From: a virus
Lineage: Duplodnaviria > Heunggongvirae > Uroviricota > Caudoviricetes
DNA length: 44,153 nt
Virus record (IMG/VR): IMGVR_UViG_2541047916_000003
Reading direction: 5' to 3' (one strand)
Shown: piece by piece, positions 4,789 to 31,068 of the stretch
Position numbering within the stretch: position 1 is the stretch's first letter
How the letters are laid out: each line of letters starts with the position of its first letter
Notes under the pieces: model-generated
Told to the model about the DNA's origin: nothing
Database searches by the model: none
Seen by the model: the letters and a program-made list of their open reading frames with translations, nothing else
Translations under genes and position numbers: made by a program

Positions 4789-4886
4789 CTTTCATTAATC
4801 CCTGAATTGTTGGTTAATACGCTTGAGGGTGAATGCGAATAATAAAAAAGGAGCCTGTAGCTCCCTGATGATTTTGCTTTTCATGT

Positions 4887-5102
4887 TCACCGTTCCTTAA
4901 AGACGCCGTTTAACATGCCGATCGCCAGGCTTAAATGAGTCGGTGTGAATCCCATCAGCGTTACCGTTTCGCGGTGCTTCTTTAGTACGCTACGGCAAAT
5001 GTCATCGACGTTTTTATCCGGAAACTGCTGTCTGGCTTTTTTGATTTCAGAATTAGCCTGACGGGCAATGCTGCGAAGGGCGTTTTCTTGCTGAGGTGTC
5101 AC
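4887..5102 (-). CDS. hypothetical protein (71 aa from GTG; track ORF extends to ATG at 5168)
   Basis: GTG at 5102 overlaps the stop of the 27-aa peptide ORF (GTGA) with GGGG 9-12 nt upstream; the ATG at 5168 has a poor ribosome-binding site. Confidence 0.4.
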   Translation of the reverse strand: MTPQQENALRSIARQANSEIKKARQQFPDKNVDDICRSVLKKHRETVTLMGFTPTHLSLAIGMLNGVFKER

Positions 5103-5182
5103 TGAACAAGCCCCATGTCGGCAAGCATAAGCACACAGAATATGAAGCCCGCTGCCAGAAAAATGCATTCAGTGGTTGTCAT
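5099..5182 (-). CDS. 27-aa hydrophobic peptide (MTTTECIFLAAGFIFCVLMLADMGLVQ)
   Basis: Hand-found ORF below the track threshold; ATG overlaps the stop of the orf63-like gene (ATGA) and its stop overlaps the next GTG start; single predicted TM helix. Confidence 0.3.
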   Translation of the reverse strand: MTTTECIFLAAGFIFCVLMLADMGLVQ

Positions 5183-5370
5183 ACCTGGTCTCTCTCATCT
5201 GCTTCTGCTTTCGCCACCATCATTTCCAGCTTTTGTGAAAGGGATGTGGCTAACGTATGAAATTCTTCGTCTGTTTCTACTGGTATTGGCACAAACCTGA
5301 CTCCAATTTGAGCAAGGCTATGTGCCATCTCAATACTCGTTCTTAACTCAACAGGAGATGCTTTGTGCAT
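5179..5370 (-). CDS. small early protein, lambda orf63-like position
   Basis: 63-aa ORF with GGGAGG ribosome-binding site upstream of ATG at 5370; same position and size as lambda orf63. Confidence 0.55.
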   Translation of the reverse strand: MHKASPVELRTSIEMAHSLAQIGVRFVPIPVETDEEFHTLATSLSQKLEMMVAKAEADERDQV

Positions 5371-30489: not shown

Positions 30490-31068
30490 ATGGCCATAAA
30501 AGGTCTTGAGCAGGCCGTTGAAAACCTCAGCCGTATCAGCAAAACGGCAGTGCCTGGTGCCGCCGCAATGGCCATTAACCGCGTTGCTTCATCCGCGATA
30601 TCGCAGTCGGCGTCACTGGTTGCCCGTGAGACAAAGGTACGCCGGAAACTGGTAAAGGAAAGGGCCAGGCTGAAAAGGGCCACGGTCAAAAATCCGCAGG
30701 CCAGAATCAAAGTTAACCGGGGGGATTTGCCCGTAATCAGGCTGGGTAATGCGCGGGTTGTCCTTTCGCGCCGCAGGCGTCGTAAAAAGGGGCAGCGTTC
30801 ATCCCTGAAAGGTGGCGGCAGCGTGCTTGTGGTGGGTAACCGTCGTATTCCCGGCGCGTTTATTCAGCAACTGAAAAATGGCCGCTGGCATGTCATGCAG
30901 CGTGTGGCCGGGAAAAACCGTTACCCCATTGATGTGGTGAAAATTCCGATGGCGGTGCCGCTGACCACGGCGTTTAAACAGAATATTGAGCGGATACGGC
31001 GTGAGCGTCTTCCGAAAGAGCTGGGCTATGCGCTGCAGCATCAACTGAGGATGGTAATAAAGCGATGA
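30490..31068 (+). CDS. Z: minor tail protein Z
   Basis: 192-aa product essentially matches lambda gpZ as recalled (MAIKGLEQAVENLSRISKTAVPGAAAMAINRV...). Confidence 0.9.
   Translation: MAIKGLEQAVENLSRISKTAVPGAAAMAINRVASSAISQSASLVARETKVRRKLVKERARLKRATVKNPQARIKVNRGDLPVIRLGNARVVLSRRRRRKKGQRSSLKGGGSVLVVGNRRIPGAFIQQLKNGRWHVMQRVAGKNRYPIDVVKIPMAVPLTTAFKQNIERIRRERLPKELGYALQHQLRMVIKR

What the first reader, a model, noticed from the sequence alone, without database searches (positions are those of the whole stretch)
5099..5182. Hidden 27-aa hydrophobic peptide gene coupled on both sides
A short ORF encoding MTTTECIFLAAGFIFCVLMLADMGLVQ is translationally coupled on both sides: its ATG overlaps the stop of the orf63-like gene (ATGA) and its stop overlaps a GTG start of the following gene (GTGA). 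It would form a single TM helix. It conflicts with the longer 93-aa reading of the downstream ORF (ATG at 5168), which has a poor ribosome-binding site. Small membrane peptides in this early region can be toxic or regulatory, as lambda Kil is.
Basis: partly seen in the sequence, partly recalled or inferred. Interest (0 to 1): 0.4.

Follow-up and report, generated by a model that had tools for sequence, protein, structure and literature searches.

The report
Unannotated 27-codon membrane-peptide gene in lambda
A tiny gene for a 27-residue greasy, probably membrane-spanning peptide lies unannotated between orf63 and orf61 in the early operon of phage lambda and its many E. coli prophage relatives; evolution protects its amino-acid sequence, and it shows that the annotated orf61 (93 aa here, 61 aa in lambda) is misdrawn.

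Summary
On the minus strand, ATG 5182 overlaps the orf63 stop (ATGA), and the stop at 5099-5101 overlaps a GTG at 5102 (GTGA). The window is phage PhiR57_1, and the locus is the lambda exo-xis region.

- **Conservation:** In 206 homologous loci (103 haplotypes) the ORF is intact in 204. ATGA is kept at the upstream junction in 205. The downstream junction is ATGA in 190 and GTGA in 16.
- **Selection:** Recurrent variants are 9 synonymous to 2 non-synonymous in the peptide frame (p=3e-4). In the orf61-extension frame they are 1 to 10.
- **Start of orf61:** Distant orf61 homologues, and E. coli/Shigella variants that lack the peptide, all start at the 71-aa "MTP/MTI" start. The 93-aa reading is therefore wrong.
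- **Linkage:** The peptide ORF travels with orf61 and stays ATGA-coupled when a methylase replaces orf63.
- **Annotation:** It is unannotated in lambda RefSeq and in PGAP output. It appears only as scattered automatic "hypothetical protein" calls.
- **Lambda itself:** Lambda's own orf61 is a frameshift artefact that encloses this ORF. The published lambda Δorf61 allele removes codons 13-27 of the peptide.

I conclude it is a real, translationally coupled gene for a small protein with one hydrophobic helix. Translation is not shown directly, and the function is unknown.

The parts
5099..5182 (-). 27-codon gene encoding MTTTECIFLAAGFIFCVLMLADMGLVQ. The equivalent in lambda is 31008-30925.
   Evidence: The ORF is confirmed. 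It is intact in 204 of 206 homologous loci. Recurrent variants are S=9, N=2 in this frame, p=3e-4. The peptide is present in 175 of 180 phage records that carry this region.
5120..5167 (-). Codons 6-21, CIFLAAGFIFCVLMLA: an uninterrupted 16-residue hydrophobic core, the predicted membrane-spanning or hydrophobic helix.
   Evidence: For the whole peptide: GRAVY 1.62, no K/R/H, two acidic residues (E5, D22) and hydrophobic moment 0.10. A hydrophobic run of at least 16 occurs in 0.014% of open shuffles.
5179..5182 (-). ATGA overlap: the stop of the upstream gene (orf63) and the start of the peptide gene. This is the proposed termination-reinitiation coupling site.
   Evidence: ATGA in 205 of 206 loci. 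The overlap is also kept when a methylase replaces orf63.
5099..5102 (-). GTGA overlap: the peptide stop and the true start of orf61.
   Evidence: ATGA in 190 and GTGA in 16 of 206 loci. PGAP places the orf61 start here.
4887..5102 (-). orf61, true 71-aa product (VTPQQENALRS..., with GTG read as Met). It is always found downstream of the peptide gene.
   Evidence: PHROG 303. Own-frame recurrent variants S=15, N=7. Distant homologues start at the equivalent MTP. It follows the peptide ORF in all 110 informative metagenome loci.
5103..5168 (-). Spurious N-terminal extension (MHFSGSGLHILCAYACRHGACS) of the 93-aa orf61 annotation. This DNA is read in the peptide frame instead.
   Evidence: In the orf61 frame, recurrent variants across window 5103-5165 are S=1, N=6 (S=1, N=10 across the wider 5103-5178 stretch). 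The possible extension is 22 or 32 codons depending on haplotype. It is absent in distant homologues.
5179..5370 (-). orf63 (DUF1382), the usual upstream partner whose stop is coupled to the peptide start.
   Evidence: Pfam PF07131, E=8e-31. Annotated as such.

Best explanation
Window 5182-5099 (minus strand) is a genuine but essentially unannotated protein-coding gene of the lambdoid exo-xis block, which published work places in the early leftward pL operon.

**Translation (inferred).** Ribosomes finishing the upstream gene reinitiate at the overlapping ATGA. The upstream gene is orf63 here and a DNA adenine methylase in mosaic relatives. Ribosomes finishing the peptide reinitiate at the second overlap (ATGA, GTGA in this window) to make Orf61. 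The real Orf61 product is 71 aa.

**Product.** A 27-residue acidic peptide with a 16-residue uninterrupted hydrophobic core and no basic residues. It most likely forms one helix that inserts in the inner membrane.

**Function (inferred).** The peptide is non-amphipathic and has a stripe of small residues (C6, A10, A21, G24). It therefore most likely acts by packing against a partner helix, either of a host or phage membrane protein or of a hydrophobic cleft, and not by forming pores. It would contribute to the early developmental effects assigned to the exo-xis region.

**What is shown and what is inferred.** Shown: ORF anatomy, conservation, frame-specific purifying selection, linkage to orf61, and the correct orf61 start. 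Inferred: translation, coupling, membrane insertion and function.
For: **Identity of the locus**
- The window is phage PhiR57_1 with identical coordinates. The gene order is exo, orf60a, orf63, [ORF], orf61, orf73, ea22.

**Frame-specific selection in 206 loci / 103 haplotypes**
- Variants seen in at least 2 haplotypes are S=9, N=2 in the peptide frame (pN/pS about 0.09, binomial p=3e-4).
- The same sites give S=1, N=10 in the orf61 frame and S=2, N=9 in the third frame.
- This is as good as the control genes: orf61 S=15, N=7 and orf60a S=19, N=15.
- The peptide is identical in 176 of 206 loci and the ORF is intact in 204 of 206.

**Junctions**
- ATGA at the upstream junction in 205 of 206 loci. 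ATGA or GTGA at the downstream junction in all 206.

**Mosaic evidence**
- In E. coli A27 a methylase replaces orf63. Homology resumes exactly at the peptide ATG, which is again ATGA-coupled and has a GGGAGG Shine-Dalgarno 4 nt upstream.
- In 110 metagenome loci anchored only inside the ORF, it is preceded by orf63 (about 97 loci) or the methylase (11 loci), and it is always followed by orf61.

**Start of orf61**
- orf61 homologues without the peptide ORF start at the 71-aa start. These are SfI, E. coli 22KM0354, and Klebsiella and Enterobacter phages.

**Peptide properties**
- GRAVY 1.62, hydrophobic moment 0.10, hydrophobic run of 16 residues. Such a run occurs in 0.014% of open shuffles.

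**No RNA alternative**
- There is no Rfam match, and the region folds less stably than its shuffles, z=+1.6.

**Circumstantial**
- The published AlphaFold and RoseTTAFold models of 93-aa Orf61 disagree on the positioning of the amino-terminal helix, and residues 1-23 were left out of the model-comparison statistics (PMC8614690).
- Infection with Φ24B Δexo-xis lowers degP by 3.0 log2 and htpX by 2.4 log2 relative to wild type (PMC10789677).
Against: - There is no direct evidence of translation or of the peptide itself.
- A review of the lambda ribosome-profiling study lists only a 7-aa and a 31-aa extra ORF in this block. However, footprints on this ORF would have been credited to the annotated lambda orf61 that encloses it. 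I could not read the primary paper.
- In the orf63 context the Shine-Dalgarno is poor (AGGT abutting the ATG), so expression depends on coupling, which is assumed.
- All known copies are at least 92.6% identical. The selection test therefore rests on 11 recurrent variants. Singletons are mostly non-synonymous (S=3, N=11), as they also are in the control genes.
- The core is only 16 residues and there are no basic flanking residues, which is atypical for a membrane anchor.
- Some phages that carry orf61 lack the gene, so it is dispensable.
- It matches no family in Pfam, PHROGs or NCBIfam.
Confidence: 0.78

Rival explanations
1. The ORF is translated, but only as a sequence-irrelevant relay. 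It passes ribosomes from orf63 to orf61 and sets the Orf61 level, and the peptide itself has no function.
For: The ORF has 4-nt overlaps at both ends. The Shine-Dalgarno sequences for the peptide and for orf61 are weak in the orf63 context. The gene is dispensable in some orf61-bearing phages.
Against: Amino-acid-level purifying selection (S=9, N=2) is not expected for a mere spacer, nor is the extreme hydrophobicity. In Klebsiella and Enterobacter phages the upstream gene is ATGA-coupled to orf61 directly, with no relay, and in SfI-type prophages orf61 follows the upstream stop after a short gap with its own Shine-Dalgarno. No relay is therefore needed.
Confidence: 0.08
2. The 93-aa annotation is right. 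The stretch encodes the N-terminus of Orf61 from ATG 5168, and the 27-aa ORF is a chance open frame.
For: This reading is used in the window's own GenBank record, in Φ24B and in other phage records. PHROG 303 contains such long forms. The ATG at 5168 is conserved.
Against: Recurrent variants in that frame are S=1, N=10. A stop sits directly upstream in some haplotypes and the frame is open 10 codons further in others. Distant and mosaic homologues start at the 71-aa start. PGAP uses the 71-aa start. No Shine-Dalgarno-like sequence lies at canonical spacing upstream of 5168 (the nearest AGG is about 15 nt away). Published models disagree on residues 1-23.
Confidence: 0.04
3. The peptide is real but is not a membrane protein. 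It is the natural single-helix ligand of a soluble exo-xis protein. One candidate is the hydrophobic cleft of the Orf63 dimer, another is Orf61. It is made in stoichiometric amounts by coupling.
For: Orf63 has a hydrophobic cleft that binds a designed 20-mer helix at 3.1 uM, and its natural partner is unknown (PMC10869804). The peptide is encoded immediately after orf63 and is always followed by orf61.
Against: The peptide ORF occurs with a methylase instead of orf63 in 11 of 110 loci. The designed Orf63 ligand is amphipathic with ionic contacts, whereas this peptide is uniformly hydrophobic with moment 0.10. I could not run a co-folding test because the peptide is below the 30-aa limit and fusions are not accepted.
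Confidence: 0.08
4. The conservation reflects a non-coding element on either strand, such as an RNA structure, an sRNA or a protein-binding site, and not a peptide.
For: The whole block is 95-100% identical among relatives at the DNA level.
Against: Variation is concentrated at third codon positions of one frame. There is no Rfam hit. Folding is weaker than in shuffles, z=+1.6. No promoter-like site was found within or next to the ORF.
Confidence: 0.02

Closest known systems
Small single-helix inner-membrane proteins of E. coli that act as accessory subunits or modulators (KdpF, AcrZ, MgtS type; sequences and roles recalled from my own knowledge)
   Same: Length under 50 aa and one hydrophobic helix. 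The low hydrophobic moment and absence of K/R match KdpF in my calculation. Genome annotation often misses them, and they are often found through conservation.
   Different: No sequence relationship was found. No partner, localisation or translation has been shown. This one is phage-encoded and sits in an early lytic operon.
Type I toxin and holin-like membrane peptides (TisB, Hok, Ibs and similar)
   Same: Size of 19-50 aa, hydrophobic helix, carried on mobile elements.
   Different: The peptide has no basic residues and no amphipathic face (moment 0.10, against 0.35 for TisB). No antisense promoter was found next to it. It is an internal cistron of a polycistronic operon.
Lambda orf61 / Φ24B vb_24B_7c as currently annotated (PHROG 303 and 26061)
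   Same: It occupies the same DNA. The annotated lambda orf61 (30839-31024) wholly encloses the peptide ORF (31008-30925), and the 93-aa forms overlap all but its first 14 nt.
   Different: The reading frame differs. The annotated N-terminal parts show no coding constraint. Lambda's version is additionally a +1 A frameshift artefact.
Extra short ORFs reported from lambda ribosome profiling (orf2311, 7 aa; orf2313, 31 aa), as cited in PMC8614690
   Same: Unannotated short ORFs in the same conserved exo-xis block. The 31-aa one lies just downstream of orf61 (window 4890-4795).
   Different: The 27-aa ORF is not among those listed. The 31-aa ORF shows no clear purifying selection (S=5, N=6), whereas the 27-aa ORF does.
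31-aa ORF of Yersinia phages vB_YenM_* (MKRKISDGAWFWIYLIGYTVAATLYIVSNAG)
   Same: It occupies the same slot, between a methylase and an orf61 homologue. It is ATGA-coupled to the methylase stop, is predicted to form one hydrophobic helix, and is unannotated.
   Different: It is not homologous. It has a basic N-terminus and stops 3 nt before the orf61-like GTG. It is known only from five identical records, so selection cannot be tested.

Membership tests
Protein-coding gene (as opposed to a chance ORF) | Excess of synonymous over non-synonymous variation in its own frame and not in the other frames | tested here: met
   Recurrent variants are S=9, N=2 (p=3e-4), against S=1, N=10 and S=2, N=9 in the other two frames.
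Protein-coding gene (as opposed to a chance ORF) | Direct evidence of translation (ribosome footprints with an initiation peak, tagged product, or mass spectrometry) | not testable with these tools
   The primary lambda ribosome-profiling paper is not held. The supplements of the EHEC small-gene study have no hit. No paper in the library contains the peptide sequence.
Translationally coupled overlapping cistrons (ATGA type) | A 4-nt stop/start overlap conserved across relatives and across different upstream genes | tested here: met
   The upstream junction is ATGA in 205 of 206 loci. The downstream junction is ATGA in 190 and GTGA in 16. The overlap is kept with the methylase as the upstream gene.
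Small single-pass inner-membrane proteins | A hydrophobic segment long enough to span the bilayer | tested here: inconclusive
   The uninterrupted core is 16 residues (C6-A21), within a possible 24-residue helix, flanked by E5 and D22. The simple Hessa-scale sum is -3.4 kcal/mol over 16 residues and about 0 over 19-21 residues. No dedicated topology predictor was available.
Small single-pass inner-membrane proteins | Membrane localisation and a defined partner | not testable with these tools
   This needs fractionation and pull-down experiments.
Type I toxin / pore-forming peptides | Amphipathic or cationic helix, and a cis-encoded antisense RNA | tested here: not met
   Hydrophobic moment is 0.10 and there are no K or R residues. 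No promoter-like site was found on the opposite strand near the ORF. There is no Rfam antitoxin RNA. Toxicity itself was not tested.
Orf61 family (PHROG 303), as an N-terminal extension of it | The extension is conserved as protein in homologues | tested here: not met
   Homologues in Klebsiella, Enterobacter and Yersinia phages, in SfI and in E. coli 22KM0354 start at MTP/MTI, the 71-aa start. Variants in the extension frame are S=1, N=10.
Any curated protein family (Pfam, PHROGs, NCBIfam) | A significant profile match | tested here: not met
   The best hits are phrog_21538 at E=0.68 and TIGR02507 at E=0.034, which is below its cut-off. Pfam gives none.

The most novel reading that the evidence does not exclude
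The 27-residue peptide is a functional sixth product of the conserved exo-xis block and the real effector behind part of what has been attributed to 'orf61'. In lambda, orf61 is a frameshifted pseudogene, and the published Δorf61 allele mainly truncates this peptide. The peptide acts either in the inner membrane, which might contribute to the higher degP/htpX expression seen with the wild-type exo-xis region than with the deletion, or as the missing natural helical ligand of the Orf63 cleft.
Probability: 0.2. Interest if true: 0.65.

Novelty: new member of a known kind. Interest (0 to 1): 0.45.

Why it matters
Lambda is the reference temperate phage. More than half of the complete E. coli genomes searched carry this block (3,281 of 5,426), and it is also found in the Stx-converting phages of EHEC.

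If the peptide is real, three things follow.
- The conserved exo-xis block has six genes, not five.
- The orf61 models used for yeast two-hybrid work, structure modelling and deletion genetics are misdrawn. The 61-aa lambda protein is a frameshift artefact, and the first 22 residues of the 93-aa Stx-phage form are not part of the protein.
- The published Δorf61 alleles also damage the peptide gene. The lambda allele removes codons 13-27, and the Φ24B allele removes the last 3 codons. Their phenotypes in host survival, lysogenisation, induction and adsorption therefore cannot be assigned to Orf61 alone.

A single silent-in-orf63 point mutation would make the question directly testable.

Tried and rejected
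**Searches that failed or found nothing**
The representative search and structure prediction need at least 30 aa, so neither could be run on the peptide.
- tblastn of the peptide against phages and plasmids found only near-identical copies, at least 92.6% identical. No distant homologues are available to strengthen the selection test.
- The primary lambda ribosome-profiling paper and a lambda review are not held.
- Full-text searches for the peptide sequence and for small-protein or transmembrane work on the exo-xis region found nothing relevant.
- The supplements of the EHEC Sakai small-gene study have no hit.

**Explanations tested and rejected**
- An RNA element: no Rfam hit, and folding is weaker than in shuffles.
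- The 93-aa reading.
- A -1 frameshift fusing the peptide to Orf61. I considered this from the sequence alone and set it aside, because GTTCAAT is not a slippery heptamer.

**Data set aside**
- The two 428-aa members of the peptide's 90% cluster are unrelated glycosyltransferase-like proteins, a clustering artefact.
- The metagenome loci were not used for the selection test, because the search pattern fixed 38 nt inside the ORF.
- A general rule that orf61 homologues are preceded by a tiny membrane ORF is not supported. Only one of six distant lineages inspected (Yersinia) has one.

Full report
**1. What is there**

The window matches Escherichia phage PhiR57_1 (PV340572.1) with identical coordinates across the region compared. 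The finding lies on the minus strand in the lambda exo-xis block. The gene order is:
- exo (6202-5522)
- orf60a (DUF1317)
- orf63 (DUF1382, 5370-5179)
- the candidate ORF (5182-5099)
- orf61 (ends at 4887)
- a 31-aa ORF (4890-4795)
- a TraR/DksA-type zinc-finger gene, the lambda orf73 equivalent (4788-4567)
- ea22

Reading the bases directly confirms three things.
- ATG 5182-5180 overlaps the orf63 stop at 5181-5179 (ATGA).
- There are 27 sense codons, MTTTECIFLAAGFIFCVLMLADMGLVQ.
- The stop at 5101-5099 overlaps GTG 5102-5100 (GTGA).

The rival 93-aa orf61 reading starts at ATG 5168. It is the one annotated in the window's own GenBank record and in Φ24B. NCBI's PGAP annotates orf61 as 71 aa from the GTG/ATG at 5102 and leaves the 76-nt gap empty. 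None of the records I inspected annotates the 27-aa ORF. These were phage 434, Turner, mEp332, 4A7, 1W, lambda, PhiR57_1 and Φ24B, and two E. coli RefSeq genomes that carry the ORF.

**2. Is it more than chance?**

The open frame alone is not. In composition-matched shuffles, 31% stay open. The hydrophobicity is unusual: a run of at least 16 hydrophobic residues occurs in 0.014% of open shuffles, and GRAVY of at least 1.62 in 0.6%.

The strong evidence is comparative. I collected 230 related loci, mostly from IMG/VR, with others from species-representative genomes and from annotated phage and E. coli genome records. I aligned 206 that cover the block, giving 103 haplotypes.
- The peptide is identical in 176 and the ORF is intact in 204. 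One has ATG>ATA, and one has Q27>stop.
- The upstream junction is ATGA in 205 of 206. The downstream junction is ATGA in 190 and GTGA in 16. The GTG in this window is therefore a minority allele of an otherwise ATG start.

**3. Which frame is coding?**

I classified each segregating variant in window 5103-5178, the part not shared with orf63 or with the true orf61, in all three frames.

| Gene or region, and reading frame | Variants counted | Synonymous | Non-synonymous | Note |
|---|---|---|---|---|
| Window 5103-5178, peptide frame | in ≥2 haplotypes | 9 | 2 | pN/pS about 0.09, binomial p=3e-4; the two changes are T3A and F8L |
| Window 5103-5178, orf61 frame (93-aa reading) | in ≥2 haplotypes | 1 | 10 | |
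| Window 5103-5178, third frame | in ≥2 haplotypes | 2 | 9 | |
| Window 5103-5178, peptide frame | all, including singletons | 12 | 13 | p=0.02 |
| Window 5103-5178, orf61 frame (93-aa reading) | all, including singletons | 8 | 17 | |
| True orf61, own frame | in ≥2 haplotypes | 15 | 7 | control gene |
| orf60a, own frame | in ≥2 haplotypes | 19 | 15 | control gene |

The off-frames of the control genes look neutral. The peptide frame therefore carries a coding signature at least as clear as its annotated neighbours, and the N-terminal extension of the 93-aa reading carries none. The selection of loci did not constrain this stretch. The search pattern fixed only flanking bases, and selected on Orf61.

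**4. Independent support from mosaics and distant relatives**

- In E. coli A27 an N6-adenine methylase replaces orf63. Homology to the window begins exactly at the peptide ATG. That ATG again overlaps the upstream stop (GCATGA) and follows a GGGAGG Shine-Dalgarno.
- In 110 informative metagenome loci found with a pattern internal to the ORF, the upstream gene is orf63 in about 97 and this methylase in 11. The downstream gene is always orf61, with ATG in about 88 and GTG in about 21.
- The E. coli 22KM0354 prophage and Shigella phage SfI have orf61 (MTIEHNNALRS...) directly after a different 250-aa gene, with no peptide ORF.
- In Klebsiella and Enterobacter phages a methylase ending ...REAA is ATGA-coupled straight to an orf61 homologue starting MTPEE/MTPAN.

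Three conclusions follow.
- Orf61 starts at the 71-aa start everywhere.
- The peptide gene is a separable 81-nt module inserted between an upstream gene and orf61.
- It has so far been seen only with the E. coli-type orf61.

Both cistrons begin ATGACA. This 6-nt microhomology would explain why the mosaic junction falls exactly on the start codon. That is my inference.

**5. Lambda itself**

Lambda has 7 A where relatives have 6. The run corresponds to window 5037-5042. The annotated lambda orf61 (30839-31024) is therefore an artefact. It consists of an unconstrained upstream frame, the first 22 codons of the true orf61, and a frameshifted tail of 7 codons. It completely encloses the intact peptide ORF at 31008-30925, which lies in another frame.

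A review states that ribosome profiling confirmed orf61 expression and added only a 7-aa and a 31-aa ORF in this block (PMC8614690). Footprints on the peptide ORF would have been credited to orf61, so this neither supports nor refutes translation. I could not read the primary paper.

The same review notes that the AlphaFold and RoseTTAFold models of the 93-aa Φ24B Orf61 differ in the positioning of the amino-terminal helix. Residues 1-23 were left out of the model-comparison statistics, and only residues 24-93 of the AlphaFold model were used for the structure search. That is what would be expected if those residues are not part of the protein.

**6. Consequence for published genetics**

I mapped the recombineering primers printed in PMC4699033.
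- The lambda Δorf61 allele deletes lambda 30889-30971. That removes codons 13-27 of the peptide and the first 36 nt of the already frameshifted orf61.
- The Φ24B Δorf61 allele begins after peptide codon 24.

Phenotypes assigned to Orf61 (PMC6213356) are therefore confounded with loss or alteration of the peptide.

**7. What the product looks like and how it probably works**

The peptide has these properties:
- GRAVY 1.62, no K/R/H, and two acidic residues (E5, D22).
- A 16-residue uninterrupted hydrophobic core (C6-A21).
- A very low helical hydrophobic moment of 0.10. By the same calculation, KdpF gives 0.09 and TisB 0.35.
- One helix face that carries T3, C6, A10, I14, V17, A21 and G24, most of them small residues.

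My best reading is a single hydrophobic helix that inserts in the inner membrane and works by helix-helix packing with a partner, not by pore formation. This is inference. The short core and the lack of basic flanks leave the topology open.

No family in Pfam, PHROGs or NCBIfam matches. No RNA-level explanation is supported: there is no Rfam hit, and the fold z-score is +1.6.

Two circumstantial leads exist.
- The Orf63 dimer has a hydrophobic cleft that binds a designed single helix at 3.1 uM, and no natural ligand is known (PMC10869804). However, the peptide also occurs without orf63.
- Infection with Φ24B Δexo-xis gives lower degP (-3.0 log2) and htpX (-2.4 log2) than wild type (PMC10789677). 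That is compatible with, but not specific for, a membrane-stressing product in this region.

**8. Distribution and prior knowledge**

- The block occurs in 3,281 of 5,426 complete E. coli genomes and in 180 phage records, 175 of which hold the peptide ORF.
- The exact peptide is in the large protein collection as an automatic 'hypothetical protein' (UniRef A0A0A2SGE8; GenBank ETI79567.1 and others for single-residue variants). It was called on 981 contigs.
- No paper in the searchable library contains its sequence.
- All copies are at least 92.6% identical and there are no distant homologues.
- A non-homologous 31-aa hydrophobic ORF occupies the same slot in five identical Yersinia phages. Other distant lineages have nothing there.

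**9. Verdict**

This is a real, conserved, translationally coupled small gene that standard annotation misses, and the 71-aa reading of orf61 is the correct one.

It is a new member of a known kind: small hydrophobic phage proteins. Its function is unknown and its translation is unproven.

The interest is moderate. It corrects the gene map of the best-studied temperate phage and of the Stx phages, and it changes how existing mutants should be read. The mechanism is not new, and the evidence is comparative only.

Noticed in passing
window 5037-5042 (T-run on the + strand); L004, lambda 30839-31024: The lambda reference has one extra A in this run compared with nearly all relatives. The annotated 61-aa lambda orf61 is therefore a frameshift artefact, and the true orf61 is truncated in lambda. 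The frameshift is shared by DE3, HK630 and E26-Berryhill, where the protein match splits into two pieces.
   Followed up: yes
window 4795-4890 (minus strand); hairpin at 4848-4866: A 31-aa ORF (MNMKSKIIRELQAPFLLFAFTLKRINQQFRD) starts at the orf61 stop. It is probably the 31-aa 'orf2313' reported from lambda ribosome profiling. It contains a terminator-like hairpin followed by a T-run. Recurrent variants give no clear purifying selection (S=5, N=6).
   Followed up: partly
L234 802-897 (Yersinia phage vB_YenM_21.09): An unannotated 31-aa hydrophobic ORF (MKRKISDGAWFWIYLIGYTVAATLYIVSNAG) lies between a methyltransferase and the orf61 homologue. It is ATGA-coupled to the methyltransferase stop and ends 3 nt before the orf61-like GTG. 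It is a non-homologous positional analogue, present in five identical Yersinia phage records.
   Followed up: partly
window 5183-5342 (orf63, the part that does not overlap other genes): orf63 encodes a protein with a solved NMR structure, yet it shows only weak purifying selection in this data set (S=12, N=27 for all variants; S=7, N=12 for recurrent ones). Its C-terminal residues vary (…ERDQV, …ERDPA, …ERELA) while the ATGA overlap is kept.
   Followed up: no
L004 (lambda 30889-30971); L241 (Φ24B): The published Δorf61 alleles, mapped from primers in PMC4699033, also damage the peptide gene. The lambda allele removes peptide codons 13-27, and the Φ24B allele starts after peptide codon 24. 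The lambda Δorf63 allele keeps the last 50 nt of orf63, including the ATGA, so it may alter coupled translation downstream.
   Followed up: yes
window 4887-5102 (orf61 product): PGAP names some 71-aa Orf61 variants 'cell division protein ZapA'. The Pfam ZapA match is below threshold (16.1 bits against a cut-off of 23.8, E=0.014), so the name is not supported here.
   Followed up: partly
L231 1495-1510; L233, L235 and L239 at the orf61 start: A mosaic junction falls exactly on the start codon. The methylase…GCATGACA joins either to the peptide gene (E. coli A27) or directly to orf61 (Klebsiella and Enterobacter phages). Both cistrons begin ATGACA, which suggests recombination mediated by this microhomology.
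   Followed up: partly
window 5179-5370: The orf63 start is annotated inconsistently between records: 63 aa in RefSeq, lambda and 434, 49 aa in the window's own record PV340572.1, and 37 aa in LR595864 and OM475428.
   Followed up: no
protein cluster of the 27-aa peptide (P0006, P0007): Two unrelated 428-aa glycosyltransferase-like proteins sit in the same 90% identity cluster as the peptide. This is a clustering artefact of the collection.
   Followed up: yes
literature: PMC10789677 and PMC10869804: Infection with Φ24B Δexo-xis lowers degP, htpX, ibpAB and dnaK relative to wild type. The Orf63 dimer has a hydrophobic cleft that binds a designed helix at 3.1 uM, and no natural ligand is known. 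Both are possible leads to the peptide's role.
   Followed up: no
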